Source: Escherichia phage phiP4. Taken from it: a stretch of 64,000 nt of DNA. The translations under genes were made by a program, and so were the position numbers. The DNA lies in sequence record PP993145.1; one strand, given 5' to 3'. Within the stretch, counting starts at the first letter, position 1. The number at the start of each line of letters is the position of its first letter. A model generated the notes under the pieces. That model saw nothing but the letters and a program-made list of their open reading frames with translations, was not told the origin of the DNA and did no database searches. This document shows, one piece after another, positions 15,975 to 47,727 of this stretch.

Positions 15975-15980
15975 TTAAAT

Positions 15981-16772: not shown

Positions 16773-16947
16773 GTTGTTTCTCCAGTTTCATCTTTAATAG
16801 TCTACAAATAAAATCAATGTCTTCATCCGTGCCTAGATCTCTATCTTCAAGAGTTGCCTTGAAGTTTTTAGTCAATTCCATGAGAATAACTTCTCTAGAA
16901 CGACGTGTTGGCGGAGGTGGATGTCTATACATCTTATTTCCTTAATT

Positions 16948-17024
16948 TGGTAGGGGTGGTGGGATTCGAACCCACAAAACCTGAATTTTAAGTCCAGTAC
17001 CTATGCCAATTCGATTACACCCCC
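16948..17024 (-). tRNA. tRNA, anticodon UAA (Leu-type anticodon, short variable arm)
   Basis: Acceptor GGGGGTG/CACCCCT, T-arm GTGGG-TTCGAAT-CCCAC, anticodon arm GGAGT... CTGGA-CTTAAAA-TTCAG. Confidence 0.5.
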
Positions 17025-17125
17025 ATGTAATCAGTTTATTAGTTGATACATATTATAGCCTAGTGAAAATCCTACTACTAATCCCACAAACCAACCAATA
17101 TAATAATCTTTTAGTTTCACAGGTA

Positions 17126-17311
17126 TTATCCTCGTTCAATATCTAGGGAAATACCGCAGTTAGGATTAATACCTGTACCATTGCAATTTGCGCAAACCCA
17201 GATATTGCAAAAAGTATCTCCTGCTTCTGCATCAGAACTTTCACCAATTCCCCTACACTCAGGGCAGGCACATTCCTCTAGCTCTTGCTTGAGTTCTTGA
17301 AACTTGGACAT
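17126..17311 (-). CDS. Cys-rich small protein (putative Zn-binding)
   Basis: 61 aa with CACPEC and CANCNGTG clusters. Confidence 0.35.
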   Translation of the reverse strand: MSKFQELKQELEECACPECRGIGESSDAEAGDTFCNIWVCANCNGTGINPNCGISLDIERG

Positions 17312-17319
17312 ATAGTCTC

Positions 17320-17508
17320 CTAGTTAATTACTTTTGAGGCTTCTAAAGCATTGACGTAGTAAACATCTTCTACATTATACATATAGTCTACTACTTTGTC
17401 CATAGCATGGAGTTCAGATGTAGCCTTTACTAGTCTGTACCCTTGCTTAAACTCGTCCGAATGTTCTCTATCTTGTGCAAATTTAACAGAAACTATGAAT
17501 AATTCCAT
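17320..17508 (-). CDS. hypothetical protein
   Basis: 62-aa ORF. Confidence 0.35.
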   Translation of the reverse strand: MELFIVSVKFAQDREHSDEFKQGYRLVKATSELHAMDKVVDYMYNVEDVYYVNALEASKVIN

Positions 17509-17527
17509 TAGTTGTCCTTATTTAATT

Positions 17528-17605
17528 TGGTGGCTCCCCGAGGATTCGAACCTACGTACCTTCCGGTTATGAGCCGGGTGCTCATACCATATGAGCTTGA
17601 GAACC
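17528..17605 (-). tRNA. tRNA, anticodon CAU (Met-type)
   Basis: Acceptor GGTTCTC/GGGAGCC, D-arm GCTC-ATATGGTAT-GAGC, anticodon arm CCGG-CTCATAA-CCGG; T-stem weak. Confidence 0.5.
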
Positions 17606-17611
17606 AAAATC

Positions 17612-17700
17612 TGGCGGAAGAAGTGGGAATCGAACCCACAAGGCTATATTTCAAGCCGACAGATTAGCAATCTGCTGCAATACCGTTATGCTATTCTTCC
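17612..17700 (-). tRNA. tRNA-Ser (GCU), type II
   Basis: Acceptor GGAAGAA/TTCTTCC, anticodon loop TTGCTAA, long variable arm hairpin GGCT...AGCC, 89 nt. Confidence 0.65.
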
Positions 17701-17721
17701 GAATTTATAAGATATATTATA

Positions 17722-18291
17722 TTAGAAATTTAGCTTCATAGCAAGAAAATTTTTCAAGTTTTCGGTAGACATCTCATCCACATCTACAGGAGAAACAAAG
17801 CCGTTTAATTTTCTAGCAAATTTTTCACCTGCAGGGTCATTATCCCCGACAGCTACCAATTTAAAAGGTAATAATTTCAGTTGCTTTAATAACGCTTTTC
17901 CTGGAGAAGAACCCAACATTGCCAGGGCTGGATAACCAGCGTTATGTAACGCAACTGCCTTAAATACAGATTCAGCAATCAATACTACTTTTTCATCTCC
18001 ATTGAGAGTTTCTAGTCCCCATACACACTGGATAGTAGAATAAGTAAAATATTTAGCTTCAAATGGGCACTTACCATGACCTTTTGGAGCAGAAGGATTA
18101 TACGTCTGATAGCCTCTCAACATCCCAGAGAAGTCATACAACGGGACTGTTAGCCATCCTTCCGGACTTAACCAGCAATGATATTTATCTGTATCAAATC
18201 CTCTAGATAAGAGGTGCTGTGTTAGCTCATCAACATTCATATTTGGTTCCTCTCTCAAATTTATAGATATATTATACAGAGAATTTAGCAT
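17722..18291 (-). CDS. Toprim-domain protein (primase-core-like)
   Basis: 189 aa; conserved Glu segment VVLIAESVFKAVAL and DxD segment VAVGDNDPAGE typical of Toprim folds. Confidence 0.45.
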   Translation of the reverse strand: MLNSLYNISINLREEPNMNVDELTQHLLSRGFDTDKYHCWLSPEGWLTVPLYDFSGMLRGYQTYNPSAPKGHGKCPFEAKYFTYSTIQCVWGLETLNGDEKVVLIAESVFKAVALHNAGYPALAMLGSSPGKALLKQLKLLPFKLVAVGDNDPAGEKFARKLNGFVSPVDVDEMSTENLKNFLAMKLNF

Positions 18292-18409
18292 TCAAGCAAT
18301 CAAATTTTTTAACTTTTTAGAGGAAAATCATATGGCACTTAAGGGTAGCAGATAAGTGGTGAGGACCAAAATTTGTGACCCCACTAAAAATCCGGGGGTA
18401 ATTTTTAAA

Positions 18410-18450
18410 GACCCCTTGACATTTTCTCGGGGGTAGTGTAAAGTATACGT
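18410..18450 (+). promoter_or_regulatory. sigma70-type promoter
   Basis: TTGACA (18416-18421), 17-bp spacer, TAAAGT (18439-18444), upstream of the plus-strand three-gene unit. Confidence 0.5.
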
Positions 18451-18506
18451 TATGGATGAGTGATCAAAGAGACACACATTTTCTATATACTAGGAGGTGT
18501 CAAAAA

Positions 18507-19493
18507 ATGACAGAAGAAGTAGCTAAGAGTCCTGAGACCGTCGCTAGCGTTGCAGCAGAACTGCACCGTCACGAGGAATCGGATAAGAAAAAGTGGGAGA
18601 AGGTCAGAGCCTACGAAGAGAAACATCGCGAACACGACGATGAAGAAGATGACGATGATGAACATTGTCATAAATATGGAAAACATAAAATGCAAGAACC
18701 AGTAAACGTATTCACTAGTGGCTTCCCTGGCCTACTGGGTGGTTACCCAGCAAACGCAGGTGCTTTCGGTGGTGAAGGTATGGGACTATTCGGAGCTATC
18801 CTAATCGGTGCTCTATTAACAGGCGGATTCGGTGGTTTCGGTGGATTCGGTGGACGTGGTGTAGTTGGTGATGGTACCGCAGTTGATGCAGTACTTCAGA
18901 ACCAAGATACCGCTAGTATTCTAGCAGCTATTAACACTACTCGTACAGAAGCTAACCAGGGTACTGGAGCTGTTTTAAGCGCAGTTAACAATGGTTTTAG
19001 CCAGACATCCCAAAACCAGAGCCGTGATACTCAGTCTGTACTAACTACGATCTATGGTACAGGTGCTAATCTGTCTAATCAGATCTGCCAGGAAACTCGC
19101 AACGTTATTCAGGGTCAGTTCGATCTTTCTCGCCAGATTGATCAATCTTTCGCAGCTAACCAGATAGCTCGTGCACAAGATAAGTTTGATTCTGCACAGA
19201 TCGCTTTCCAGCAGACTTTACAAACTAATAACCAGTTTGCCGCTGTTCAGGCTCAGATGTGTGCTAACCAGAACTCTCTGGAACGTCAGATCGCTGAATG
19301 TTGCTGTGAACTTCAGACTGCGATCGCTGGTGTAACTACTGCGCGTATCCAGGATGAGTTAGACGCATGTCGCCTACGTGAAGCAATCGCTGCTGGTAGC
19401 GGTGCTAACGGTCAGGTAATTAATCAAATCGCTTTAAGTCTTGGTGCTATCACTCAGACTCTGGCTGGTCTGCAGGCTAAACTGCCGGCTTAA
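18507..19493 (+). CDS. Gly-rich membrane protein with Gln/Asn-rich C-terminal region
   Basis: Start ATG after AGGAGG; charged N-terminus, glycine-zipper TM (GLFGAILIGALLTGGFGGFGGFGG), long Q/N/A/T-rich domain; host-like codon usage. Confidence 0.6.
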   Translation: MTEEVAKSPETVASVAAELHRHEESDKKKWEKVRAYEEKHREHDDEEDDDDEHCHKYGKHKMQEPVNVFTSGFPGLLGGYPANAGAFGGEGMGLFGAILIGALLTGGFGGFGGFGGRGVVGDGTAVDAVLQNQDTASILAAINTTRTEANQGTGAVLSAVNNGFSQTSQNQSRDTQSVLTTIYGTGANLSNQICQETRNVIQGQFDLSRQIDQSFAANQIARAQDKFDSAQIAFQQTLQTNNQFAAVQAQMCANQNSLERQIAECCCELQTAIAGVTTARIQDELDACRLREAIAAGSGANGQVINQIALSLGAITQTLAGLQAKLPA

Positions 19494-19514
19494 TATTAAG
19501 GGGAGGAGCCCATT

Positions 19515-19919
19515 ATGAGTAAATATGGTTTTGTAAATAACGGACTTAATCAAAGTATGGGCTCCCAGCAGCCCATGCCGGGTCTGGATAACCCCTACTT
19601 ACAACAGTTGCAACAGCGTTTAGCAGAAGCGCAACAGATGCAGCAACAACTCCAGCAAAACCCTGGAAGTGTGAGTCCTATGCAAATGATGCAGCAAATG
19701 AGCGGGCAGTCGCAAATGCCTCAACAAATGCAGCAACAGGTGCCGCAGCAGCAAACCCAACAACCGCAGGTTTCTGCGGAAGGACAGGCAGTACTAGCCC
19801 TTTTCGAAGACTTCGCAAAGACAGAGGATGGGAAACAGCTTGTATCACTTATGGGTAAGTTTAATAGCTTCTGCCAAAGCCAAGTTGCAAAAGCTCAAAA
19901 TGGTGGTAATAACTCCTAA
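19515..19919 (+). CDS. Gln-rich low-complexity protein
   Basis: 134 aa, MQQ/QQL repeats; strong RBS GGGGAGGAG. Confidence 0.5.
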   Translation: MSKYGFVNNGLNQSMGSQQPMPGLDNPYLQQLQQRLAEAQQMQQQLQQNPGSVSPMQMMQQMSGQSQMPQQMQQQVPQQQTQQPQVSAEGQAVLALFEDFAKTEDGKQLVSLMGKFNSFCQSQVAKAQNGGNNS

Positions 19920-19928
19920 GGAGGAATT

Positions 19929-20123
19929 ATGTGTTGCAGAAAATCTGTTTCGTGCTGCCCAATGCCTGTAACACGTTGTTGCTCTCCAGCAATGTTTACG
20001 CAAATACCGGCGTTCAATCCGTTTGCCTTTAAACCTATTCTTATCCTGCCCCCTAGAGTAGATTTTCAGTCAAGATTGGCCTCCCGTATGGGTGGTTGCT
20101 GTACACCGAGAGTGTGGTTCTAA
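19929..20123 (+). CDS. small Cys-rich protein
   Basis: 64 aa with CC pairs (MCCRK..CC..CC..GGCC); RBS AAGGAGG. Confidence 0.45.
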   Translation: MCCRKSVSCCPMPVTRCCSPAMFTQIPAFNPFAFKPILILPPRVDFQSRLASRMGGCCTPRVWF

Positions 20124-20137
20124 ACCAAAAAACAAAA

Positions 20138-20170
20138 GCCCCTGCCGAAAGGTAAGGGGCTTTTTCTTTT
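20138..20170 (+). terminator. rho-independent terminator (plus-strand unit)
   Basis: Hairpin gcccct-gccgaaaggta-aggggc followed by TTTTTCTTTT. Confidence 0.65.
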
Positions 20171-20184
20171 GCCTTAAATACAGA

Positions 20185-20220
20185 AAAGCCCGCGCTCTCG
20201 GAGGAAACGCGGGCTTGGTT
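20185..20220 (-). terminator. rho-independent terminator (SPFH gene)
   Basis: Hairpin agcccgcg...cgcgggct with T-run on minus strand, downstream of 20240..21187. Confidence 0.6.
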
Positions 20221-20239
20221 CGAAGATTACGTGTAACTA

Positions 20240-21187
20240 TTACTTGTTACGCATATCCATGATCATTTGACCATCGTAGCCAGTACCTACCACAGTCTGA
20301 GGCACACCACCTTGATACTTCTGAGCACGAATCATTTCAACTTCCAGTTGCTTCCAGCGAATCATCTCAGGAGTAATGGTACGTTGCAATGCGGCGTTAG
20401 CTTCAGCTTCTTTTTTAGCTGCGTACAGTTTAGCATCTGCGTCACGTTCGTTAGCAATAGCCTGGTTATTACGGGCTTCACGGTCTGCTTCTGCCTGTTT
20501 AACTTTTTGCTGTGCTTCTTGTTCAACACGAGCCAACTCAGCTTTTGCAGCATTAACTTGCTCTTCACGAACTTTGGTATTCTGTACCTGTTCCATGATT
20601 ACTGGTGGCAGAGTAATATCCTGAAGGAATACCTGCTTAACTGTGTAACCATATGGGCGTGCATACTCTTCAACTTCTTGTTGAATTGCAGTTTGCAATT
20701 GAGCCTGAATTTTAGCATCAAACAAATCTTGTGCTTTAGGTACAGACTTACCAAACTCACGAATAGTAGACAGTAATTTTTCAGTTACATATTTGTCTAA
20801 CGCTTGATCCTGAGTACCCGCATTAATACGGTTAATCGGTGCCTTAGAACCATCAAACTGCAACATAACAGTCAGGTCAACAGTGGATTTAAACTTATCC
20901 TGGCTAGGAACCTGAAGTTTATCTAATTTTACAGCAATATCTTTTGTACTAAAAGTATCGAAAGATGCAAATGGGTTTACAAGATGGAAACCCGGTAATA
21001 CTGGGTTAGGATCTACTTTACCCAGAAATGTTTGGGTTTTAACCGTACCATCAGAAACAATAGTATATGAATTAAAGGCTAGAATCAAGCCTGCTAAACC
21101 AACTACAGCACCAATACCCCAACGTTTAATAGTACGAATTACTTTCTGCTCAGAAGTCAGTTCTTTCATATTTTTAGTATTAAACAT
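20240..21187 (-). CDS. SPFH/band-7 (stomatin-prohibitin-HflK/C-like) membrane protein
   Basis: 315 aa; N-terminal TM helix, SPFH-like core, C-terminal coiled coil rich in A/E/Q/K/R (AEADREARNNQAIANERDADAKL). Confidence 0.65.
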   Translation of the reverse strand: MFNTKNMKELTSEQKVIRTIKRWGIGAVVGLAGLILAFNSYTIVSDGTVKTQTFLGKVDPNPVLPGFHLVNPFASFDTFSTKDIAVKLDKLQVPSQDKFKSTVDLTVMLQFDGSKAPINRINAGTQDQALDKYVTEKLLSTIREFGKSVPKAQDLFDAKIQAQLQTAIQQEVEEYARPYGYTVKQVFLQDITLPPVIMEQVQNTKVREEQVNAAKAELARVEQEAQQKVKQAEADREARNNQAIANERDADAKLYAAKKEAEANAALQRTITPEMIRWKQLEVEMIRAQKYQGGVPQTVVGTGYDGQMIMDMRNK

Positions 21188-21221
21188 ATATTTCCTTTGT
21201 TTTAGTTACAGTTAATAAAAT

Positions 21222-21296
21222 TGGCCGAGGTGACAGGATTCGAACCTGCATAAAGGAATTTAGAAGACTCCTGCCTCTCCCTTAGACTACACCCCG
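21222..21296 (-). tRNA. tRNA-Arg (UCU)
   Basis: Acceptor CGGGGTG/CACCTCG, T-arm GCAGG-TTCGAAT-CCTGT, anticodon arm GGAGT-CTTCTAA-ATTCC. Confidence 0.6.
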
Positions 21297-22803: not shown

Positions 22804-23271
22804 TTAAGTTTTAGTGACAACAGGTTTATAGAATGTATGTCCCTTAATCTTAGTTGTTTTCTTAAATTTCTTTGTCCAGTAAGGTTTATCTTTACCACTA
22901 TGGAAGTATAGTGCTCCATGTGTAGGATCTTGTGGTAAATCAACGTAGTATATCACTCTAGCTAAATTCTTAGCTGTTTGCCAAGCCTCATCAGTTTTAT
23001 CAACTTTTGGTCTCTTAGATACCCAAGAGAACTGGTTAGACTGATATACTACTTTACAGTAGGAATCTGGGAATTTACCGGAGTTTACACGGTTTTTAGT
23101 AACATGTGCAATCGCCGTCATTCCCTTTATGCCCTCACCACGACTTTCGAAATAGATATTTTTAGCAATGCAATCTATTTCTTTTGCATCGTGCGATGCC
23201 TGACTACTAAAGCTGAAGGTAAGGGCAGCTACTAAAAGCAAAGCTGCCTTCATTCTTTTTACTCCTGCCAA
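22804..23271 (-). CDS. secreted cell wall hydrolase (SleB/Hydrolase_2-like)
   Basis: 155 aa; signal peptide, conserved segments NIYFESRGE, AIAHVTKNR, YCKVVYQSNQFSW. Confidence 0.6.
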   Translation of the reverse strand: MAGVKRMKAALLLVAALTFSFSSQASHDAKEIDCIAKNIYFESRGEGIKGMTAIAHVTKNRVNSGKFPDSYCKVVYQSNQFSWVSKRPKVDKTDEAWQTAKNLARVIYYVDLPQDPTHGALYFHSGKDKPYWTKKFKKTTKIKGHTFYKPVVTKT

Positions 23272-26262: not shown

Positions 26263-26778
26263 TTACTTCGCTTTACGCTTGCTAGCTGGTTTAGCAGATT
26301 TACGAGCAGAATCACCCGTGAACTTAATGCCTACACCGTAACACAGAGCGCGAACGTTATCTTTACTATACTCTACGCCAAAGATATTTGGCTTAACAGA
26401 ACCAAACTGTCCACGAGCATCACGTAGTACGTCTGCCGTTGGTTTACGCTTCTGGTTAACTGCTTTCTCATAGTCTTTCATAGCCATACCATTACGAGAG
26501 AACAATTCAGCCCCAGCGTTGAAGCTCAGGGAAACTGGGGCAGATTTGTGGCCGTAATTTTCTACATACATAACCATTTTGTAGGATTTACGGGTGGCAT
26601 TTTTAGCTTTAGGCTTCTGACGAATCGGAGCCGGATTATTCAGTGCTTGTGCAGCCTGAGCATCGGTAGGATGCTTACGCAGGTGGCGTTCCAGACGAGC
26701 TTTGCGATTAGCTTCGGTCTGCGGGAAAGTTTTAACTGCCGGAGCTGCTTGAGTTTTTGCGTTTTTCTGTTTAGCCAT
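26263..26778 (-). CDS. basic protein, probably highly expressed
   Basis: 171 aa, Lys/Arg/Ala-rich termini, host-optimal codons. Confidence 0.5.
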   Translation of the reverse strand: MAKQKNAKTQAAPAVKTFPQTEANRKARLERHLRKHPTDAQAAQALNNPAPIRQKPKAKNATRKSYKMVMYVENYGHKSAPVSLSFNAGAELFSRNGMAMKDYEKAVNQKRKPTADVLRDARGQFGSVKPNIFGVEYSKDNVRALCYGVGIKFTGDSARKSAKPASKRKAK

Positions 26779-26853: not shown

Positions 26854-27303
26854 TTAATTTATTAACTGTAAGCTTCTTTTAATTTCAGACCTTACCTGCA
26901 TCAAAAGAACTCCTAAAGTATTATCCCCGATGCCTCGGCAAACACCCCAATATGTATCTCCCCAGGTATTTCCTTCGATCAAAGTTGCATTTTTTGTTGC
27001 TAACAGTTTGTCTCTCAAATCAGGGATTGCAAACTTTAACCGTAAAAGCTCTAGCATTACATCATCTTTTACCTTATCCCAGTCAGAGCGCAGAGTTAAT
27101 TTACGTCCTCTACGTTTGGCAACACCTGCATTTAGGGAGCGCAGTACATGAGCTACATCATCTTTTTGGTCGGATTTCATAGCCTGAAAAGCGTGTTCTA
27201 CAGTATCAGCATGCCATATTTCATTTAGATATTCGAAAGTAATTGGTGATAAATAAAAGTTTGATAAGAAACTATAAGCACCTTTAAATTCAGTAATCTT
27301 CAT
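26854..27303 (-). CDS. NADAR-domain protein (YbiA-like)
   Basis: 149 aa; FLSNFY ... EHAFQAMK ... WGVCRGIGDNTLGVLLM segments as in the NADAR/YbiA family. Confidence 0.7.
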   Translation of the reverse strand: MKITEFKGAYSFLSNFYLSPITFEYLNEIWHADTVEHAFQAMKSDQKDDVAHVLRSLNAGVAKRRGRKLTLRSDWDKVKDDVMLELLRLKFAIPDLRDKLLATKNATLIEGNTWGDTYWGVCRGIGDNTLGVLLMQVRSEIKRSLQLIN

Positions 27304-35069: not shown

Positions 35070-35110
35070 AATATTGTTGACATCCGCCCTCGAATGAGTT
35101 ATAATAGTAG
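35070..35110 (+). promoter_or_regulatory. sigma70-type promoter for nrdD
   Basis: TTGACA (35077-35082), 17-bp spacer, TATAAT (35100-35105). Confidence 0.55.
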
Positions 35111-35134: not shown

Positions 35135-37009
35135 ATGAATCGCAATGAAGAACTAAAGTATAAAGAAATGCAGGCGTTAATTAGAAACTGCAAAGAGATT
35201 ATCGAAGGGTCAGCAGATGAAGAGCTGCTGTTTAATAATGCTAATAAACCCTCAGAACGTTTCCCTACACAAAGGGATATGCTTGCAGGTGAGTTGAGTA
35301 AGTATCTGATTCTAGAAGAAATGCCAATTCAGATTCGAAATGCTCATATGATTGGGGATATTCATTTCCATGATGCTGATTATGCTGCATTAGGCATGAC
35401 TAACTGTTGCCTGGTAGCTCTGGAAGATATGTTAAAGAATGGTATGAAGGTTGGTAATGCTGAAATTAGCACTCCAAACTCTATCACTACTGCGGCGGCT
35501 ATCACTGCTCAGATTATCACTCAAGTTAGCTCCCATCAGTATGGTGGTACTTCTGTAGATCGCCTTGATGAAGTATTAGCCCCTTATGTTCGTAAATCCT
35601 ATGACAAAAATCATGCGTTTGCAAAACGTTGGACTAAGGATGAAGCCAAAGCATCTGTAATGGCTACGGAGATGACTGAAAAAGAAGTCTATGACGCTTG
35701 TCAGGGTTTAGAATATGAAATCAATACCATGTTTAACTCTAATGGTCAGAGTCCATTTATTACCTTTGGTTTTGGTCTAGGAACTTCCTGGGAAGCACGT
35801 CTAGTACAGAAAGCAATACTGAAAGTACGCATGGATGGTTTAGGTATCAATAAACGTACAGCTATCTTCCCAAAACTGGTATTTGTACTTCGTGATGGCG
35901 TAAATATGAAACCAGGAGATGTTAATTATGACATCAAGAAGTTAGCTATGAAATGTACTGCTGAACGTATGTATCCAGATTATATCAGCTATGACAAAGT
36001 TGTAGAAGTTACTGGAGACTACAAAGTTTCTATGGGCTGCCGTTCATTCCTAGCTGCTACAGAAGATGGTGAAACTGCCGGTCGTAATAACTTAGGTGTT
36101 GTTTCTGTAAACTTGCCTAGAATTGCTATCGAAGCTGAAGGAAATATTGACCTATTCTTTGATTTGCTTGAGCTACGTGTGGATACAGCATTAAAAGCGT
36201 TGGAGTGGAGAGTTGATCGCTTAAAATATATCCAAGCTAAAGCTGCACCCATCCTCTATATGTCAGGAGCTTTTGGGTTACGCTTGGAGCCTGATGAATA
36301 TGTATTCGATCATTTCTATAACCGTGCTTCTGTATCCCTAGGGTATATTGGTTGCCATGAAATGCTACAGTTCATGTTTGGCAAAGATGTAGACACAATG
36401 TCCGAGACCTGCATCAAGTTTGTTCAGCGTGTATTGCAGTACATGCGAGATAGGGTAGATCAGAAGAAGGAAGAAACTAAGTTAGGTTATAGCCTATATG
36501 CTACACCATCGGAATCCCTATGCGATCGTTTTTGTCGTCTAGACCGTGAGTATTTCCCGGAGCATGAAGATATTCTGTCCAAAGGATACTACACTAACTC
36601 GCACCACCTTGATGTAGAACGTAAAGTTGCTCCTAACGTCAAATTTGATTATGAATCTAACTTTACTCCGATTGCTTCTGGTGGGTGCATTTCCTATGTA
36701 GAACTACCAGATATGAAACGATTCCCAGATGCACTGGAATGGGTTATTAATTATGCCGCTAGTAAAGTTCATTACTTCGGTATCAATACTCCAGTGGATT
36801 CTTGTGGTAAATGTGGATTCTTAGGTGAAACAATAGCATCCGAGGATGGATTTAAGTGCCCTATCTGTGGTAATCATGACCCCGAAACTCTTGAAGTAAC
36901 TCGTCGAGTTTGTGGGTATCTTGGAAATCCGGGTGCTCGTCCCTTTAACCCCGGCAAACAGCACGAGGTGATGGGCAGAGTGAAACATCAGGATATTCGA
37001 GCTAAATAA
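35135..37009 (+). CDS. nrdD: anaerobic ribonucleotide reductase class III
   Basis: 624 aa; C-terminal glycyl radical motif RVCGYLG and Cys-rich Zn site. Confidence 0.9.
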   Translation: MNRNEELKYKEMQALIRNCKEIIEGSADEELLFNNANKPSERFPTQRDMLAGELSKYLILEEMPIQIRNAHMIGDIHFHDADYAALGMTNCCLVALEDMLKNGMKVGNAEISTPNSITTAAAITAQIITQVSSHQYGGTSVDRLDEVLAPYVRKSYDKNHAFAKRWTKDEAKASVMATEMTEKEVYDACQGLEYEINTMFNSNGQSPFITFGFGLGTSWEARLVQKAILKVRMDGLGINKRTAIFPKLVFVLRDGVNMKPGDVNYDIKKLAMKCTAERMYPDYISYDKVVEVTGDYKVSMGCRSFLAATEDGETAGRNNLGVVSVNLPRIAIEAEGNIDLFFDLLELRVDTALKALEWRVDRLKYIQAKAAPILYMSGAFGLRLEPDEYVFDHFYNRASVSLGYIGCHEMLQFMFGKDVDTMSETCIKFVQRVLQYMRDRVDQKKEETKLGYSLYATPSESLCDRFCRLDREYFPEHEDILSKGYYTNSHHLDVERKVAPNVKFDYESNFTPIASGGCISYVELPDMKRFPDALEWVINYAASKVHYFGINTPVDSCGKCGFLGETIASEDGFKCPICGNHDPETLEVTRRVCGYLGNPGARPFNPGKQHEVMGRVKHQDIRAK

Positions 37010-37016
37010 GCTAATC

Positions 37017-37050
37017 AGCCGGGTTGCTAGTCGACCTGGCTTTTATTTTA
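37017..37050 (+). terminator. rho-independent terminator
   Basis: Hairpin after nrdD stop followed by TTTTATTTTATTT. Confidence 0.5.
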
Positions 37051-37088
37051 TTTGCTTTCAGCCAAAAATTTATATATAATAGATTTAT
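37045..37088 (+). promoter_or_regulatory. T5-type early promoter
   Basis: TTGCTT (37052-37057), 17-bp spacer, TATAAT (37075-37080), A/T-rich upstream. Confidence 0.55.
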
Positions 37089-37108
37089 AAATTTGATGAG
37101 AGAAAGAT

Positions 37109-37321
37109 ATGAGAGTTCACAAGGTAGATAAAGAACGTATCTATTTTATTATGGATTCTGGGGCGTATGGTTCCATTCTCCGTGGGGATATAACTAAATT
37201 ATGTTTAGTAAATACTTGGATGAACGAAGGGAAGATTGATCCTAGGGTGGGATTGTGCTTATCCGAACCCGCCCTTTCTATTGCTAATGCAGAAATTGAA
37301 ATGTTTGAGGAACAAGAATGA
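37109..37321 (+). CDS. hypothetical protein
   Basis: 70-aa ORF with RBS. Confidence 0.4.
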   Translation: MRVHKVDKERIYFIMDSGAYGSILRGDITKLCLVNTWMNEGKIDPRVGLCLSEPALSIANAEIEMFEEQE

Positions 37322-37521
37322 AAAACGTAAAACATCTTAAATATCGCTTAATTTACAACGGACGTATGGAAACAGAAGATCTGGCCCAGTTAGCTATTAA
37401 TTCTAATGAGGTTACAGTGCGTGCGCTGGCAATTGAAAAGTTGCGTGCCTCTTATGAAAATCGTGTTATGGAACTAGAGGAGAAACTTTATGGCATTCTC
37501 GAAGCTGATGCTACCAGATAA
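37318..37521 (+). CDS. hypothetical protein
   Basis: 67-aa ORF, ATGA overlap. Confidence 0.4.
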   Translation: MKNVKHLKYRLIYNGRMETEDLAQLAINSNEVTVRALAIEKLRASYENRVMELEEKLYGILEADATR

Positions 37522-37711
37522 GGGTTTAAACGACGCTTTGGAAAACGCATTAATGCAGCAGTGGGAAACTGGCTATAAGGATGGTGTTGAATCCTGTGCT
37601 ACTATGCTAGAAGTTATTGCTAATACCTTAATGGAGAAAGGCAATAAAGAATTAGCTGAGCTATTAGACAGTATTGGGCAAAACTTCAGAGAACAGGTGA
37701 AAAATGCGTAG
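37490..37711 (+). CDS. hypothetical protein
   Basis: 73-aa ORF. Confidence 0.4.
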   Translation: MAFSKLMLPDKGLNDALENALMQQWETGYKDGVESCATMLEVIANTLMEKGNKELAELLDSIGQNFREQVKNA

Positions 37712-38519
37712 ATTAATTATTATTAGTGGTGCAGGTTTGAGTGTTGAAAGTGGTGTACGAGCTTTTCGTACTGATACTGCTAGTGGTAAAGCATTGTGGG
37801 ATGATTATGATCTAGAAGAGGTATGTAATATTCATGCCTTTCGTGGTAATTTTTATCATAAAACCCATATGTTTTACAACAAGCGTCGTGAAGAGCTAAA
37901 AACTGTTGAACCCAATCTTGCGCATTTGCGTATTGGTGAATGGTATAAACAATATCCAGGCCAAGTAGTAAACTTGACTACCAACGTTGATGACCTTATT
38001 GAGCGTGCTGGCGTTCCACATAGTGACATTCTGCACATTCACGGATATTTAAAAGAGGTTGTTGTAGCTGATAGCTACAATAGTAGCAATAAACGGATTA
38101 TTGATGTAGGGTACAATTCTATTGATCCAGACGATTATAAATGGGTTAAACCTAATGTAATCTTTTTTGGGGAGCATGCTCCAGCGTACGCAGAAATGTA
38201 CAATGTTTTTGATGGTATTACCAGTCAAGATATGATCGTTGTGGTTGGTTGCTCTAACCAAGTAATTAACTTCTACTGGGAATTATTTCCTGTTCTTAAT
38301 TTGACTGCTGCCAAGCTAATGGTTGTTAACTACTATGATAGTGCCCTAGCGGCGGAACCGAGCTATCAAGGTATGACTCGTAGTGAGATGTACCAGCTGG
38401 AAGAACGCGGTATCCCTTACTGGAGTAAAGGTGCGGTAGATGCTTTCAGTGATCCTGATTTTATTGCTCGTGTAGAAGCTCATTTAGAGGGTAGACCTTA
38501 TGTGTCAGGAAATAAGTAA
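37704..38519 (+). CDS. Sir2-family (sirtuin-like) NAD-dependent protein
   Basis: 271 aa; N-terminal GAGLSVESGVRAFR matches the sirtuin NAD-binding signature; HIHGYL catalytic-His context. Confidence 0.6.
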   Translation: MRRLIIISGAGLSVESGVRAFRTDTASGKALWDDYDLEEVCNIHAFRGNFYHKTHMFYNKRREELKTVEPNLAHLRIGEWYKQYPGQVVNLTTNVDDLIERAGVPHSDILHIHGYLKEVVVADSYNSSNKRIIDVGYNSIDPDDYKWVKPNVIFFGEHAPAYAEMYNVFDGITSQDMIVVVGCSNQVINFYWELFPVLNLTAAKLMVVNYYDSALAAEPSYQGMTRSEMYQLEERGIPYWSKGAVDAFSDPDFIARVEAHLEGRPYVSGNK

Positions 38520-39012
38520 TACTCCAATTATTTTTCTAGACATTGATGGGGTGCTCAATTCGAGCATCTCCCAATATCATGCGCCTGATGATGAAAAGAT
38601 TTTCTTTGGAAGTGATTGGGTTTTCAAACCGCTTCTCAAGGCTTTTCAGGACTTTATTCGTCCTTCTCCAATAATGATTGTTGGAGTATCATCTTGGTTC
38701 TCTGTCAGAAATGAGATGGAGAACGTTCAGATTATGACCGGATTAGGTCTTATCGATCGTTTTCTTGGTACAACGGATTTTACTGGGGGTGGATTATCTA
38801 GGGGTAATTCTGTTCTTCGCTTCGTTGAAAAGCATAAGCTCAAACATTGGTGTGTGCTTGATGATGCGGGTGCTATGATGTATCAGTATCCAACGGTTAT
38901 AGTCAACGGTAGGACTGGAATAAATCTTCAAGATTTAAGAGCTGTTAGCTATATGTTAGAATTTAGTCCGGATCTTGAAATGTGTAAATCCTTACAACAA
39001 TTTAAGGTGTAA
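38500..39012 (+). CDS. HAD-superfamily phosphatase-like protein
   Basis: 170 aa; N-terminal FLDIDGVLN resembles HAD motif I. Confidence 0.4.
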   Translation: MCQEISNTPIIFLDIDGVLNSSISQYHAPDDEKIFFGSDWVFKPLLKAFQDFIRPSPIMIVGVSSWFSVRNEMENVQIMTGLGLIDRFLGTTDFTGGGLSRGNSVLRFVEKHKLKHWCVLDDAGAMMYQYPTVIVNGRTGINLQDLRAVSYMLEFSPDLEMCKSLQQFKV

Positions 39013-39014
39013 AT

Positions 39015-39443
39015 ATGTTCAACAATGTATTCTCTAAAGAAGCTAACCCAATTTTGGTTAACTTTTGGCGTACTCTCCCAGCTAGCCTGTATAATGAGAC
39101 TATTAACTCTTTGAAAATATGGTGTGAGAATAACGAAATCTCCTTTGCTTTTAAAGATGATATTGATGAGGCTCCCTGTATTGGTTTAATTGTTCAGGTA
39201 GAGGAGGGTCTTGAAGAGATTGTCGGCTGGAAAGAGTTAGATGAAATGGGCTTAGTTTTTGCATTAAACTATAAGCTGTTTATGCCTGCTAAGCATCGCC
39301 TCGTTGTTAACTATAAAACTAGTGAATCTCCTGGTTTTCAGGTTAATGAACGTTATGGTTGGTCTTACTCACCGGAAGAAGTAAATGAGGGGATTCAGAA
39401 ACTTCGACGTTTCGGGTATATGATCCCAGGTTTAACTGCTTAA
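39015..39443 (+). CDS. hypothetical protein (paralog 1 of tandem pair)
   Basis: 142 aa; shares W..L.EMGL.FALN..LF.P and C-terminal G(Y/I)..PGL with the next ORF. Confidence 0.5.
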   Translation: MFNNVFSKEANPILVNFWRTLPASLYNETINSLKIWCENNEISFAFKDDIDEAPCIGLIVQVEEGLEEIVGWKELDEMGLVFALNYKLFMPAKHRLVVNYKTSESPGFQVNERYGWSYSPEEVNEGIQKLRRFGYMIPGLTA

Positions 39444-39452
39444 GGAGGCAGA

Positions 39453-39845
39453 ATGGAACAAGTATATTGGCGTCAGATTGATCCTAGTTTGGTGAAACGT
39501 GCGGAGAAGCTGCTACAACGTTGGTTGGGGGTAAGACAAGCCTCCTTCACTTTTCCGGAGCAGCAAATAGATGATCCCTGTGTTGGTGTTTTCCTATCCG
39601 GCTACGCGGGGGGATGGGAGTTGGATTGGAATGAATTGTCTGCTATGGGCTTGATTGTTGCCCTAAACTTCTCTTTGTTCCATCCACGTGGTTTGGCCAT
39701 ATGTCGTGTGCCGGATGATGGTTGTTCGCCATATCTTTTACAGGTGGAAGATGATATTTGGGAGTACACTCCAGATATTCTCGCAGAAGCTAAAGAACAA
39801 TTAAATCGTGTTGGGATTTATGTTCCGGGCCTAAATGATGAATGA
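39453..39845 (+). CDS. hypothetical protein (paralog 2 of tandem pair)
   Basis: 130 aa; same conserved blocks as 39015..39443. Confidence 0.5.
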   Translation: MEQVYWRQIDPSLVKRAEKLLQRWLGVRQASFTFPEQQIDDPCVGVFLSGYAGGWELDWNELSAMGLIVALNFSLFHPRGLAICRVPDDGCSPYLLQVEDDIWEYTPDILAEAKEQLNRVGIYVPGLNDE

Positions 39846-45782: not shown

Positions 45783-46754
45783 ATGACTAATGTAAAAGAA
45801 TTTATTAAACGCTGTCAAGAAGCATATTATCAAGGCATGTCTTTAATCTCTGATGAAGAATATGATCGTCTTATTAAAAGATTCCCACTAGAGGAAGAGA
45901 TTGGGCCTAAGGGTGATATTCCACATCTGTATCGTATGTATTCTTTACAGAAAGTTTATTATAATCGTGGAGATAAACCTCCGTTTAACCCATTAGGTCA
46001 GGTAGAAACTGATAAGTTAGATGGTTGTGCGATTTCTCTGCTATATATTAATGGAGAATTTGTTCAAGCATTAACTCGTGGTAATGGTATTCTAGGGAAT
46101 GATGTCACAAGCAACGTAAGATTGCTGAACATCCCTAAAAAGATCTCCCAAAAAGTACCTACTCAAATCACTGGTGAAGTTCTAATTACAAAAGAAGTAG
46201 AAAATAAACGTAACTTTGCCTCTGGTGCTATTAACCTCAAAGATAGTGATGATTTCGTACAACGTATCGGAGAAGGTGGTTTAATCTTCGTTGCATACGG
46301 TATCCAGTGTTCTGCTGAATCTGTAGGTATTACAGAAGCATATTTAAAAGATATGCTTTGGCTGGAGAATGAGAACTTCTTAACAGTTGTTAATGTGCGT
46401 TCCTTCTTTAAATGGATTCCGACGGACGGTAAAGTTGTTCGTATTAATGATAACAACAAATTCTTTCGTGAAGGCTGGACTAATAAATTTCCTCGTGGCG
46501 CATTCGCTATTAAAGAAGATGAAGAAGGCGAAATTACAACTCTTACTAAAGTTGAATGGCAGGTAGGGGCTTCTGGTAAAGTAACTCCAGTTGGTTATTT
46601 CGAACCGGTAATTATTGATGATGCTACAATTGTTAAAGCGACTCTTAATAACGTTGATTATATTAACTCTCTTGATCTAGAGATCGGTTGCCAGATTCGA
46701 GTAATTCGTGCTGGTGGTGTAATCCCGTGTATAGTAGAGCGAGTATACGATTAA
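45783..46754 (+). CDS. ligA: NAD-dependent DNA ligase, N-terminal portion (adenylation and OB domains)
   Basis: 323 aa; KxDG adenylation motif DKLDGCAISLLY and TRGNGILGNDVTSNV block; ORF ends before the Zn-finger region. Confidence 0.75.
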   Translation: MTNVKEFIKRCQEAYYQGMSLISDEEYDRLIKRFPLEEEIGPKGDIPHLYRMYSLQKVYYNRGDKPPFNPLGQVETDKLDGCAISLLYINGEFVQALTRGNGILGNDVTSNVRLLNIPKKISQKVPTQITGEVLITKEVENKRNFASGAINLKDSDDFVQRIGEGGLIFVAYGIQCSAESVGITEAYLKDMLWLENENFLTVVNVRSFFKWIPTDGKVVRINDNNKFFREGWTNKFPRGAFAIKEDEEGEITTLTKVEWQVGASGKVTPVGYFEPVIIDDATIVKATLNNVDYINSLDLEIGCQIRVIRAGGVIPCIVERVYD

Positions 46755-46953: not shown

Positions 46954-47727
46954 TTGATGAAAATCGAAATTCCAACACAATGTCCCTCTTGTGGTTCTAA
47001 GCTAGATCTTGTCAACGGACAATTATTCTGTCGGAATAAGTCCAACTGTCCAGCGCAATCAAGTAAGTTAATTGAGAACTTCTGTACAAAAATGAAGTTA
47101 AAGGGCTTTGGTCCGAAAACTATTGAGAAGCTGGAGCTGACGAAGATTTCAGAACTATTTTACCTAACCGAAGAAGATTTGGTTAGAGCCGTGGGTAGCA
47201 AGGTTGCCGCTAAGTTAATTAGCGAATTAAATACTAAAGTTCGCGGAGACATTGACTTTGGTTCAGTTCTCGGTTCTTTAGGAATCCCTCTAATCGGAGA
47301 GGTTGCAGCAAAGAAATTATCCCAAAATTGCACTAGCTTCCACGATGTGAAGGCTGACGGCAAGGCTGGAGAAAACTACAAAGCCTGGCTAAATTCCCCA
47401 CAAGGCAAGGATGTTATCGAACTACCGTGGAAATTCTCAACTGGTGCTAAAGCTAAAACCGTCGTTACTGATGATTTAGTTGCCCAGCCAAATGGAATCG
47501 TGGTATGTATTACCGGATCTTTGCAAGATTTTGCAAATCGAACGGATGCAACAAACTATTTAGAAAGTCTAGGATATACGGTTAAGAAATCCGTTACCAA
47601 AGACGTCAAATACCTAATCTGTGAGGATGAATCAAAACGTTCCTCCTCATCTTATAAGAAAGCCGAAACGAATGGGATAGAAATCCTGTCGATTAAAGAA
47701 CTATTGGAGAAAAATAATAATGTCTAA
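46954..47727 (+). CDS. ligA: NAD-dependent DNA ligase, C-terminal portion (Zn finger, HhH, BRCT-like)
   Basis: 257 aa; Cys4 Zn finger CPSCGS...CRNKSNCPAQ directly at the N-terminus as in LigA domain 3. Confidence 0.7.
   Translation: MMKIEIPTQCPSCGSKLDLVNGQLFCRNKSNCPAQSSKLIENFCTKMKLKGFGPKTIEKLELTKISELFYLTEEDLVRAVGSKVAAKLISELNTKVRGDIDFGSVLGSLGIPLIGEVAAKKLSQNCTSFHDVKADGKAGENYKAWLNSPQGKDVIELPWKFSTGAKAKTVVTDDLVAQPNGIVVCITGSLQDFANRTDATNYLESLGYTVKKSVTKDVKYLICEDESKRSSSSYKKAETNGIEILSIKELLEKNNNV

What the first reader, a model, noticed from the sequence alone, without database searches (positions are those of the whole stretch)
37704..39012. Sir2-like NAD-dependent protein followed by a HAD-like phosphatase
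GAGLSVESGVRAFR is a good match to the sirtuin NAD-binding signature, but the protein lacks the usual Cys4 zinc module. Together with the NAD-dependent ligase and the NADAR gene, the phage carries several NAD-consuming or NAD-linked activities. A phage sirtuin could deacylate host proteins, ADP-ribosylate targets or interfere with NAD-depletion defences. The overlapping downstream gene has a HAD motif-I-like DIDGVL.
Basis: partly seen in the sequence, partly recalled or inferred. Interest (0 to 1): 0.5.

Follow-up and report, generated by a model that had tools for sequence, protein, structure and literature searches.

The report
Zinc-less phage sirtuin with HAD phosphatase
This T5-like phage carries a real but already annotated gene pair, a sirtuin lacking the usual zinc site plus a small phosphatase of an "RNA repair" family, which published comparative genomics predicts cleans up damaged RNA ends using NAD+ and which nobody has tested.

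Summary
ORF 37704-38519 (271 aa) is a SIR2-family protein (Pfam E 1.2e-24). It has the GAGxSxxSGxxxFR loop, N94/D96 and the catalytic His113, and no Cys4 zinc site. ORF 38500-39012 (170 aa) overlaps it by 20 nt and is a capless HAD phosphatase of family HAD_SAK_2 (E 1.2e-19) with all four HAD motifs.

The window is a Tequintavirus (T5-like) genome. The gene is annotated "Sir2-like" in hundreds of phage records. Zinc-less phage sirtuins were described in 2016. The sirtuin plus "Swiss-army-knife" HAD neighbourhood of T5-like phages was described in 2022, with a predicted Tpt1/KptA-like role in removing RNA 2'-phosphates. I found no experimental test.

My analysis adds the following:
- The fold and acyl/anion pocket are CobB/SIRT5-like (class III).
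- The HAD-Sir2 linkage survives inversion of gene order.
- Orthologous sirtuins in rV5-like phages sit beside RNA ligase, cREC and a kinase.
- T5-like genomes lack any RNA ligase or kinase.
- The pair is dispensable (DT57C chimera).

Best reading is NAD+-dependent RNA-end healing (about 0.4). The main rival is a protein deacylase (about 0.3). The finding itself is already known and of modest interest.

The parts
37704..38519 (+). Zinc-less, class-III-like sirtuin (SIR2 family), 271 aa. Key residues: GAGLSVESGVRAFR 9-22; C41; Y58/R61 (YxxR); TTNVDD 92-97; catalytic H113-G114; KPNVIFFGE 149-157; GCS 182-184.
   Evidence: Pfam SIR2 E 1.2e-24. Best solved relatives are CobB, Sir2Af and SIRT5 by sequence and by fold (pLDDT 89.5, Foldseek E 5e-17). 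The catalytic and pocket residues are invariant in 37 homologs. 0-1 Cys in the zinc-module-equivalent segment.
38500..39012 (+). Capless (C0) HAD phosphatase of family HAD_SAK_2, 170 aa. Motif I FLDIDGVLN 12-20 (D14 nucleophile, D16); motif II S64/S65; motif III R101 (assignment inferred); motif IV D121-D122.
38487..38519 (+). Translational-coupling junction: GAGGG ribosome-binding site (38487-38491) and the HAD start codon (38500) lie inside the last 33 nt of the Sir2 ORF, giving a 20-nt overlap in the +1 frame.
   Evidence: Read directly from the sequence. The same arrangement and RBS are annotated in phage Lindwurm.
37109..37711 (+). Three small overlapping ORFs (70, 67 and 73 aa) upstream in the same tightly packed gene string. 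The last one overlaps the Sir2 start by 8 nt. They are context only, with no family assignment, and are not shown to belong to the module.
   Evidence: They are variably present in relatives.
39015..39845 (+). Two paralogous DUF7415 genes (39015-39443 and 39453-39845, 31% identical) directly downstream. They are context only and probably independent of the Sir2-HAD pair.
   Evidence: Pfam DUF7415 E 1.7e-35 and 9.7e-32. They are retained in DT57C, where Sir2 and HAD are deleted, and absent next to the Sir2-HAD pair in L007, L009, L020 and L021.

Best explanation
The pair is a translationally coupled accessory module of T5-like phages.

Shown by computation: gene 1 is a catalytically intact sirtuin descended from the CobB/SIRT5-like (class III) lineage. 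It has lost the four zinc cysteines but keeps the NAD+ pocket, the catalytic histidine and the anion-binding Tyr/Arg pair. Gene 2 is a capless, aspartate-nucleophile HAD phosphomonoesterase of the family named for RNA-repair proteins.

Inferred, following Iyer et al. 2022: the sirtuin transfers ADP-ribose from NAD+ onto a phosphate oxygen at a damaged RNA end (a 2'-phosphate left after a 2',3'-cyclic phosphate is opened). His113 then activates the ribose 2''-OH to attack the phosphorus. This releases RNA with a free 2'-OH plus ADP-ribose 1'',2''-cyclic phosphate and nicotinamide. The chemistry parallels both Tpt1/KptA and the normal sirtuin deacylation cycle. The HAD would remove the remaining terminal 3'- or 2'-phosphate from the RNA, or dephosphorylate the ADP-ribose-phosphate by-product.

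The net effect would be NAD+-dependent healing of RNA (probably tRNA) ends cut by metal-independent host nucleases. It would complement the phage's 22 tRNA genes as a defence against host attacks on translation. Because T5-like phages encode no RNA ligase or 5'-kinase, they can heal ends but not seal them. Any rejoining or 3'-end rebuilding would have to be done by host enzymes.
For: Identity and activity:
- The profile, motif, fold and conservation data all support an active sirtuin and an active HAD phosphatase.

Functional coupling:
- The genes overlap by 20 nt with an internal RBS.
- HAD_SAK_2 and SIR2 stay within one or two small ORFs of each other in two Demerecviridae subfamilies and in four divergent metagenomic T5-like phages. 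In those four the order is inverted to HAD-x-SIR2, and the HAD is only 39-42% identical.

RNA-end context of the same sirtuin clade (55-62% identical):
- In rV5, BIS47, L022 and L023 the sirtuin lies in a cluster with an Rnl1-type RNA ligase, a cREC cyclic-phosphate domain, an AAA_33 P-loop kinase, a metallophosphoesterase and a MazG-like protein.
- In jumbo phage GAP32 the next gene is a Nudt16-like Nudix + cREC fusion.
- A HAD_SAK_2 gene lies 3 kb from an RNA ligase in L011.

Other points:
- A tightly coupled phosphomonoesterase has an obvious role if the sirtuin handles phosphates. It has none if the product is O-acyl-ADP-ribose (inference).
- Capless HADs such as MDP-1, the CTD phosphatases and the phosphatase domain of Pnkp act on macromolecules (plus established knowledge).
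- The hypothesis is published: PMC9503650 section 3.7.3 and PMC7824862.
- The window carries 22 tRNA genes.
Against: - There is no experimental evidence for any member of this sirtuin clade.
- The window and the complete genome of the close relative Lindwurm contain no detectable RNA ligase, cREC or polynucleotide kinase. The T5-like version therefore lacks the sealing half of the pathway. Producing 2'-OH/3'-OH ends would not feed the host RtcB ligase, which needs a 3'-phosphate (established knowledge).
- The active site looks like that of a lysine deacylase. C41, Y58, R61, V95 and V152 occupy the positions of CobB A76, Y92, R95, I131 and V187.
- Both proteins are acidic (pI about 5.3-5.4, family medians 5.2), which is unusual for RNA-binding enzymes.
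- Sir2 occurs without the HAD in Klebsiella T5-like phages. It also occurs with no recognisable RNA-repair neighbour in Phapecoctavirus and KVP40-like phages.
- The nearest 150 HAD_SAK_2 relatives are standalone or tandem HADs with no ligase or kinase fusions.
- In GAP32 and L023 the sirtuin also lies near NAD-salvage genes, which equally fits a general NAD-metabolic role.
Confidence: 0.4

Rival explanations
1. The sirtuin is what it most resembles: a CobB/SIRT5-type NAD+-dependent protein lysine deacylase, probably preferring acidic acyl groups such as succinyl or malonyl. It would strip acyl marks from host or phage proteins to retune metabolism during infection, for example by activating acetyl-CoA synthetase. 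The HAD would be an unrelated neighbouring phosphatase or nucleotidase.
For: - The best sequence and fold matches are all deacylases: CobB, Sir2Af1/2, SIRT5 and Sir2Tm.
- The class III Tyr/Arg pair and the acyl-tunnel residues are invariant.
- NCBIfam CobB-type models are the only hits.
- Skliros et al. proposed this role for the related Vibrio phage protein (PMC5107563).
- The acidic pI fits a protein-directed enzyme.
- The gene lies in a nucleotide-metabolism region with nrdD, nrdAB, thyA, frd and phoH.
Against: - Scores are far below every CobB equivalog cut-off: 100 bits against 221-395.
- The zinc module that shapes the peptide cleft has lost its ligands.
- The conserved Pro of the peptide-binding loop (CobB VYP) is Asn, giving VIN (PMC5107563 for the CobB residues).
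- This reading does not explain the persistent, order-independent linkage to a phosphomonoesterase, or the RNA ligase / cREC / kinase neighbourhood of orthologs.
- The host already has CobB.
Confidence: 0.3
2. The pair acts on small NAD+-derived molecules rather than macromolecules. One version is NAD+ cleavage or phosphorolysis by the sirtuin, followed by dephosphorylation of ADP-ribose-phosphate by the HAD. Another is destruction or editing of ADP-ribose-based host immune signals. Either would form part of the phage's NAD+ economy together with NADAR and the NAD-dependent ligase.
For: - NAD-linked genes co-occur in the window: NADAR and the NAD-dependent DNA ligase.
- In other phages the sirtuin lies near NamPT, PRPP synthetase, NadM-Nudix and NADAR.
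- The anion-binding Tyr/Arg pair could hold inorganic phosphate or a phosphorylated ligand (inference).
- The jumbo-phage review discusses SIR2, cREC, Nudix and NADAR as processors of ADPr-derived signals (PMC7824862).
Against: - The protein has no similarity to the known NADase-type SIR2 effectors (no PADLOC hit). Its nearest folds are transferases, not hydrolases.
- Consuming NAD+ would compete with the phage's own NAD-dependent DNA ligase.
- Capless HADs usually prefer macromolecular substrates (plus established knowledge).
- No kinase or cyclase that would generate a dedicated small-molecule substrate is linked in T5-like phages.
Confidence: 0.12
3. The sirtuin is a macromolecular ADP-ribosyltransferase that stably modifies a host protein or nucleic acid, as SirTM-type sirtuins or T4 Alt/Mod do, to take over host functions.
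For: Sirtuins can act as ADP-ribosyltransferases (cited in PMC9503650). All NAD-binding and catalytic residues are intact.
Against: - There is no linked Macro or other reversing enzyme, as is typical for SirTM systems (PMC9503650).
- The fold neighbours are deacylases.
- The retained His113 and acyl/anion pocket point to a two-step transfer-and-release cycle rather than a stable adduct (inference).
Confidence: 0.08

Closest known systems
Sirtuin + 'Swiss-army-knife' HAD neighbourhood of T5-like phages (type 3, typified by Escherichia phage SP15; Iyer, Burroughs, Anantharaman & Aravind 2022, PMC9503650)
   Same: It is the same gene pair. The SP15 HAD is 97% identical to the window's (H105), and the window is 95-98% identical in DNA to many Tequintavirus genomes. 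The published prediction is a KptA/Tpt1-like removal of RNA 2'-phosphates, with the HAD processing terminal phosphates.
   Different: Nothing substantive differs. That work is purely computational. Details added here: the class III pocket map; linkage in both gene orders; absence of a ligase or kinase in T5-likes; natural loss in DT57C; replacement of the Sir2 allele between sister genera.
E. coli CobB / human SIRT5 / Archaeoglobus Sir2Af1 (class III sirtuin lysine deacylases)
   Same: - Best sequence match (E 2e-17 for the single sequence, 2e-29 for the family profile) and best fold match (Foldseek E 5e-17, target TM 0.84).
- Shared GAGxSxxSGxxxFR, N-x-D, HG and FGE motifs.
- Shared Tyr/Arg pair (Y58/R61 = CobB Y92/R95) and tunnel residues.
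   Different: - About 23-26% identity only.
- Far below the NCBIfam equivalog cut-offs.
- All four zinc cysteines are lost, although the three-stranded module is still predicted with confidence.
- TQNID is TTNVD, and the peptide-loop VYP is VIN.
- There is an extra 60-residue C-terminal extension.
- The clade is phage-restricted.
Tpt1/KptA RNA 2'-phosphotransferase
   Same: This is the proposed functional analogue. It consumes NAD+, transfers ADP-ribose to a phosphate oxygen, then releases ADP-ribose 1'',2''-cyclic phosphate. In yeast and plants it works downstream of an RNA ligase with cyclic phosphodiesterase and kinase modules, much as the rV5-type sirtuin sits beside a ligase, cREC and a kinase.
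   Different: The fold is unrelated (ART fold versus Rossmann-type sirtuin) and there is no sequence relationship (no Pfam hit other than SIR2). The activity is entirely hypothetical for the sirtuin.
Phosphatase domain of T4 polynucleotide kinase-phosphatase (Pnkp) and other capless HADs (MDP-1, SCP1/Fcp1)
   Different: - No sequence-level hit to any solved structure.
- Standalone, not fused to a kinase.
- Motif III appears to be an Arg (R101) in a GGGxxRG loop.
- The substrate is unknown.
Defence-associated SIR2 NADases (ThsA, DSR1/2, SIR2-HerA, SIR2-APAZ/pAgo)
   Same: SIR2 Rossmann core without a Cys4 zinc site; involved in phage-host conflict; uses NAD+.
   Different: - No PADLOC model matches at E <= 0.01.
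- None appears among the top 50 fold matches.
- There is no sensor or partner domain.
- The gene is carried by a lytic phage, and the deacylase-type small domain and pocket are retained.

Membership tests
SIR2/sirtuin superfamily (Pfam PF02146) | Profile match above the curated gathering score over the full domain | tested here: met
   87.6 bits against a cut-off of 24, profile positions 1-178 of 180, E 1.2e-24.
SIR2/sirtuin superfamily (Pfam PF02146) | NAD+-binding Rossmann loop GAGxSxxSGIPxFR | tested here: met
   GAGLSVESGVRAFR at residues 9-22. G9, A10, G11, S13, S16, G17, F21 and R22 are invariant in 37 homologs.
SIR2/sirtuin superfamily (Pfam PF02146) | Catalytic His (HG motif) and the Asn/Asp of the QNID motif | tested here: met
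   H113-G114 aligns with the CobB HG. N94 and D96 are invariant. The Gln is replaced by an invariant Thr93.
SIR2/sirtuin superfamily (Pfam PF02146) | NAD+-dependent catalysis (nicotinamide release) | not testable with these tools
   Requires an enzyme assay.
Canonical sirtuin deacylases (classes I-IV, U) | Cys4 zinc-binding module in the small domain | tested here: not met
   There are two Cys in the whole protein and none in residues 114-150. All 37 family members have 0-1 Cys in that segment. The beta-strands of the module are still predicted with high confidence.
Class III sirtuins (CobB/SIRT5) | Tyr-x-x-Arg pair that binds acidic acyl groups | tested here: met
   Y58 aligns with CobB Y92, identified through the Y92A mutant chain 6rxs. 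R61 aligns with R95. Both are invariant. The role of these residues is established knowledge for CobB and SIRT5.
Class III sirtuins (CobB/SIRT5) | Score above NCBIfam equivalog/subfamily cut-offs for CobB-type deacylases | tested here: not met
   Best score is 100.4 bits against a cut-off of 243; the others score 43-90 bits against cut-offs of 221-395.
Class III sirtuins (CobB/SIRT5) | Peptide-binding loop G-T-S-x-x-V-Y-P with conserved Pro | tested here: not met
   GCSNQVIN: Val is kept, Tyr becomes Ile188 and Pro becomes Asn189. The CobB residues are named in PMC5107563.
Class III sirtuins (CobB/SIRT5) | Lysine deacylase activity | not testable with these tools
   Requires acyl-peptide assays.
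Defence-type SIR2 NADases (ThsA, DSR, SIR2-HerA, SPARSA) | Match to a defence-system SIR2 profile and presence of a fused or adjacent sensor or partner (SLOG, HerA, pAgo/APAZ, large C-terminal domain) | tested here: not met
   No PADLOC hit at E <= 0.01. The protein is a standalone 271 aa, and its neighbours are a HAD and DUF7415 genes.
HAD superfamily, family HAD_SAK_2 (PF18143) | Profile match above the gathering score | tested here: met
   71.5 bits against a cut-off of 27.5, profile positions 1-138 of 139.
HAD superfamily, family HAD_SAK_2 (PF18143) | Four HAD catalytic motifs (I DxDx[TV]; II S/T; III K/R; IV DD or DxxxD) | tested here: met
   D14-I-D16-G-V, S64/S65, R101 and D121-D122 are invariant or near-invariant in 24 homologs. 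Assigning R101 to motif III is an inference.
HAD superfamily, family HAD_SAK_2 (PF18143) | HAD Rossmannoid fold, capless (C0) architecture | tested here: met
HAD superfamily, family HAD_SAK_2 (PF18143) | Phosphatase activity on RNA terminal phosphates | not testable with these tools
   This is a prediction from Burroughs & Aravind 2016, as cited in PMC9503650 and PMC7824862. The nearest 150 relatives show no ligase or kinase fusions.
Phage sirtuin-centred RNA-repair neighbourhoods (Iyer et al. 2022) | Sirtuin of the phage-specific clade adjacent to a SAK-type HAD (type 3) | tested here: met
   The genes are adjacent and overlapping here. The window's HAD is 97% identical to the SP15 HAD. The sirtuin is 55-62% identical to the rV5/Mydovirus-type sirtuins of type 2.
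Phage sirtuin-centred RNA-repair neighbourhoods (Iyer et al. 2022) | Presence of a complete heal-and-seal set (RNA ligase, 5'-kinase, cyclic phosphodiesterase) in the same genome | tested here: not met
   tblastn with Rnl1, Rnl2-like, cREC and AAA_33 kinase queries against the window and the complete Lindwurm genome found nothing better than E 0.7. Pfam scans of 20 other ORFs found none.
Tpt1/KptA RNA 2'-phosphotransferases | Homology to the Tpt1 ART-fold domain | tested here: not met
   SIR2 is the only Pfam family hit. Any relationship is by analogy of chemistry, not by descent.

The most novel reading that the evidence does not exclude
The zinc-less phage sirtuin is not a protein deacylase at all. 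It is an RNA 2'-phosphotransferase, which would be a new catalytic activity for the sirtuin superfamily, convergent with Tpt1. In T5-like phages the capless HAD would have displaced the cREC domain as its aspartyl-phosphate partner, forming a minimal 'heal-only' RNA-end repair module that works together with host enzymes and the phage tRNA set to defeat tRNA-cleaving immunity.
Probability: 0.35. Interest if true: 0.7.

Novelty: already known. Interest (0 to 1): 0.3.

Why it matters
About a thousand sequenced phage genomes carry this sirtuin clade, and no member has been characterised biochemically.

If the published prediction holds, sirtuins would gain a nucleic-acid-directed activity: NAD+-dependent removal of RNA 2'-phosphates. 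T5-like phages, which are widely used in therapy cocktails and as defence-system probes, would gain a second layer of protection against tRNA-targeting immunity besides their tRNA genes.

If the protein is instead a CobB-like deacylase, it would be a clear case of a lytic phage rewriting the host acyl-proteome. Either outcome can be tested with simple assays.

For the genome scan itself, the finding is a correct re-identification of an annotated and previously discussed gene pair, not a discovery.

Tried and rejected
- **Defence-type SIR2 NADase.** Rejected: there is no PADLOC hit, and the fold neighbours are deacylases.
- **True CobB ortholog.** Rejected: scores are far below the NCBIfam cut-offs and the clade is phage-restricted.
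- **Programmed frameshift or natural Sir2-HAD fusion.** No homolog among 173 Sir2 and 33 HAD database hits carries both domains, and none of the ten multi-domain proteins checked among the 150 nearest HAD representatives does. The only 'fusion' is the DT57C deletion chimera, which lacks both active sites.
- **Small ORF between HAD and Sir2 as a hidden cREC.** This ORF occurs in the metagenomic T5-likes. There is no Pfam hit and no BLAST similarity to the rV5 cREC.
- **DUF7415 pair as part of the module.** Rejected: the pair is kept when Sir2 and HAD are lost, and is absent from other Sir2-HAD loci.
- **RNA ligase, kinase, cREC or 2H elsewhere in the T5-like genome.** None found.
- **NARP3 (PnuC + NadR) in the window.** Not seen among the ORFs scanned. 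It may lie elsewhere in the genome or be absent from this subclade.
- **DUF7275 as a divergent RNA ligase.** DUF7275 recurs upstream of Sir2 in UP17 and phi-ST2. It has no BLAST similarity to Rnl1 and no hit to solved structures.
- **Burroughs & Aravind 2016.** The original definition of the SAK HAD could not be read because the paper is not held. I relied on how later papers from the same group cite it.
- **Experimental work on a phage sirtuin.** The literature searches found none.
Full report
**What is there**

The window is a T5-like phage. The 3-kb region around the finding is 95-98% identical in DNA to Tequintavirus genomes such as Lindwurm, mar004NP2 and IME178. The Sir2 protein is 100% identical to that of phage Lindwurm.

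They overlap by 20 nt in the +1 frame, with a GAGGG ribosome-binding site at 38487-38491.

They sit in a tightly packed string of genes: three small ORFs, Sir2, HAD, then two DUF7415 paralogs. The string follows nrdD, which has a perfect consensus sigma-70 promoter (35077-35105) and a terminator (37017-37041) of its own.

**The sirtuin**

Profile evidence is decisive:
- Pfam SIR2 scores 87.6 bits, E 1.2e-24, against a cut-off of 24.
- PHROG 2162 gives E 3.7e-121.

The closest solved proteins are E. coli CobB, Archaeoglobus Sir2Af1/2 and SIRT5. This holds by sequence (E 2e-17, or 2e-29 with the family profile). It also holds by fold, with an AlphaFold model at pLDDT 89.5, Foldseek E 5e-17 and target TM 0.84.

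In an alignment of 37 homologs that are 55-86% identical to the window protein, the invariant positions are:
- the NAD loop (G9, A10, G11, S13, S16, G17, F21, R22);
- N94, V95 and D96;
- the catalytic H113-G114;
- K149, P150, V152, F154, F155 and E157;
- G182 and S184.

I compared the alignments to wild-type CobB and to the engineered CobB chain 6rxs (A76G, Y92A, I131L, V187Y). This maps phage C41, Y58, V95 and V152 onto CobB A76, Y92, I131 and V187, and R61 onto R95. The clade therefore keeps the class III acyl/anion pocket. The role of Y92/R95 (SIRT5 Y102/R105) in binding acidic acyl groups is established knowledge.

The protein differs from canonical sirtuins in several ways:
- There is no zinc site. 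It has two Cys in total, none in residues 114-150, and all 37 relatives have 0-1 Cys there. The three-stranded module is still predicted confidently.
- TQNID is TTNVD.
- The peptide-binding loop VYP is VIN.
- Scores are far below the NCBIfam CobB cut-offs.

No defence-system SIR2 model matches.

**The phosphatase**

Pfam HAD_SAK_2 ('HAD domain in Swiss Army Knife RNA repair proteins') scores 71.5 bits, E 1.2e-19.

All four HAD motifs are invariant or nearly so in 24 homologs: FLDIDGVLN 12-20, S64/S65, R101 and D121-D122.

An exhaustive profile search finds about 13,000 representative clusters. Almost all are standalone proteins of 150-190 aa. The few longer ones are tandem HAD_SAK_2 repeats, plus one metallophosphoesterase fusion.

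**Are the two genes functionally linked?**

Several observations support linkage:
- The translational overlap described above.
- The pair is conserved in Markadamsvirinae, in both Tequintavirus and Epseptimavirus. In Epseptimavirus two tiny ORFs intervene.
- It is conserved in Mccorquodalevirinae (phage My1).
- It is conserved in four divergent metagenomic T5-like contigs, where the order is inverted to HAD, small ORF, SIR2, and the HAD is only 39-42% identical.

The linkage is not obligatory:
- Sir2 homologs occur in 999 phage records and the HAD in 498.
- The Klebsiella T5-like phage Roth39 has Sir2 without the HAD.
- In DT57C both genes are reduced to a 90-aa in-frame chimera of Sir2 residues 171-216 and HAD residues 130-170, which lacks both active sites.

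The module is therefore accessory and dispensable.

**What the wider clade says about function**

The same sirtuin clade (55-62% identical) occurs in rV5 and in three related ~135-150 kb myovirus contexts (the Mydovirus BIS47 and metagenomic contigs L022 and L023). There it lies in a cluster with an Rnl1-type RNA ligase, a cREC ('cyclic-phosphate processing receiver') domain protein, an AAA_33 P-loop kinase, a metallophosphoesterase and a MazG-like protein. An ATP-dependent DNA ligase lies a few genes downstream. This was confirmed in rV5, BIS47, L022 and L023.

In the jumbo phage GAP32 the gene after Sir2 is a Nudt16-like Nudix + cREC fusion. NamPT and NadM-Nudix lie upstream and PhoH downstream. 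A HAD_SAK_2 gene lies 3 kb from an RNA ligase in L011.

These observations reproduce the three neighbourhood types described by Iyer et al. 2022 (PMC9503650). That paper names the T5-like phage SP15 as the type example for the sirtuin + SAK-HAD pair. It proposes that the sirtuin acts like KptA/Tpt1 to remove RNA 2'-phosphates. An earlier paper from the same group predicts that SAK-type HADs hydrolyse linear terminal phosphates after cyclic ends are opened (PMC7824862).

My own inference is that HAD_SAK_2 in T5-like phages occupies the place that cREC holds elsewhere. Both use an aspartyl-phosphate mechanism.

**Why I do not rate the RNA-repair model higher than about 0.4**

- T5-like genomes lack the rest of the pathway. 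tblastn with the rV5-type ligases, cREC and kinase against the window and the complete Lindwurm genome finds nothing, and Pfam scans of 20 further ORFs find no ligase, 2H or kinase. Ends with 2'-OH/3'-OH are not substrates for the host RtcB (established knowledge).
- The pocket is that of a lysine deacylase.
- Both proteins are acidic.
- Phapecoctavirus and KVP40-like contexts show no recognisable RNA-repair genes.
- No experiment exists.

Against the deacylase rival stand the lost zinc ligands, the altered peptide loop, and above all the persistent coupling to phosphoesterases. Those enzymes have no role in a cycle that produces O-acyl-ADP-ribose.

**Novelty and verdict**

- The Sir2 annotation goes back to the T5 reference record (cited in the GAP32 record), and hundreds of records carry it.
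- The missing zinc site in phage Sir2/CobB proteins, with T5 named as carrying the gene, was described by Skliros et al. 2016 (PMC5107563).
- The Sir2 + SAK-HAD neighbourhood and its mechanistic hypothesis were published in 2022.

The finding is therefore a correct identification of something already known. It is of modest interest, mainly because the predicted new sirtuin activity remains untested.

**Side observations**

- Between this phage and Epseptimavirus, NrdD is 97% identical, the HAD 89% and the DUF7415 proteins 74-76%, but the Sir2 only 52%. The Sir2 similarities also cut across phage taxonomy; for example, My1 is 70% identical to the myovirus-type L022. The sirtuin gene therefore seems to be exchanged as a cassette.
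- PHROG 18062, labelled 'Sir2', matches the C-terminal half of the intact HAD (E 4.9e-58) and apparently derives from DT57C-like chimeras. This explains why many pipelines annotate the HAD gene as a second 'NAD-dependent deacetylase'.

Noticed in passing
L002 3480-3752 (Escherichia phage DT57C); affects annotation of window 38500-39012: The DT57C 'defective sir2' is an in-frame deletion chimera of Sir2 residues ~171-216 and HAD residues ~130-170. PHROG 18062 ('Sir2') matches the HAD C-terminal half at E 4.9e-58. As a result, intact HAD genes are mislabelled 'Sir2 (NAD-dependent deacetylase)' in many PHROG-annotated T5-like genomes.
   Followed up: yes
window 35135-39845 vs L017 (Epseptimavirus vB_EcoS-26175I): There is a sharp mosaic boundary. 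NrdD is 97% identical, the HAD 89% and the DUF7415 proteins 76% and 74%, but the Sir2 only 52%. Sir2 similarities cut across phage families (T5-like My1 is 70% identical to a Mydovirus-like contig), which suggests the sirtuin is swapped as a cassette.
   Followed up: partly
window 39015-39443 and 39453-39845 (+): Two tandem paralogs (31% identical) of DUF7415, of unknown function and both acidic. They are found only in T5-like phages among the loci examined. They are retained in DT57C, which has lost Sir2 and HAD, and some records annotate them as 'tail tube protein', which looks spurious.
   Followed up: partly
L014 1778-2719 (Phapecoctavirus UP17) and L016 2245-2859 (Vibrio phage phi-ST2): A DUF7275 protein (with DUF7277 in UP17) recurs about 2 kb upstream of Sir2 in two lineages that lack recognisable RNA-repair neighbours. 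The UP17 N-terminus has a GS...DLD pattern reminiscent of Pol-beta-type nucleotidyltransferases. It has no BLAST similarity to Rnl1 and no sequence hit to solved structures.
   Followed up: partly
window 9209-21296 (-): A cluster of 22 tRNA genes interspersed with small ORFs, typical of T5. It is relevant as a parallel strategy against tRNA-targeting host defences.
   Followed up: no
window 26854-27303 (-), 26263-26778 (-), 20240-21187 (-): NADAR (PF08719, E 6.9e-22) lies next to a DUF7022 gene, and a Band_7/SPFH gene lies 6 kb away. In the rV5-like contigs L022 and L023, Band_7, a small ORF and NADAR are adjacent, about 4-5 kb downstream of the Sir2.
   Followed up: no
window 8566-8934 (-): A 122-aa ORF whose C-terminus matches the glycyl-radical domain (PF01228, E 4e-18). 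It looks like a GrcA/YfiD-type 'spare part' glycyl-radical protein in a phage that also encodes the glycyl-radical enzyme NrdD. The Lindwurm record annotates it only as 'acetyltransferase-related'.
   Followed up: no
window 45783-46754 and 46954-47727 (+): The NAD-dependent DNA ligase is split into two genes (adenylation + OB domains; HhH + BRCT domains) about 200 nt apart. This is the separated arrangement that Iyer et al. note has no cellular precedent.
   Followed up: partly
window 35077-35105 (+): A perfect consensus sigma-70 promoter (TTGACA, 17 nt, TATAAT) lies 30 nt upstream of nrdD. A near-perfect divergent promoter lies at 35025-34997 facing phoH.
   Followed up: no
window 17722-18291 (-) and 22804-23271 (-): A 189-aa Toprim-domain ORF sits among the tRNA genes. 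A SleB-type cell-wall hydrolase (PF07486, E 2.4e-25) lies well away from the holin and endolysin genes.
   Followed up: no
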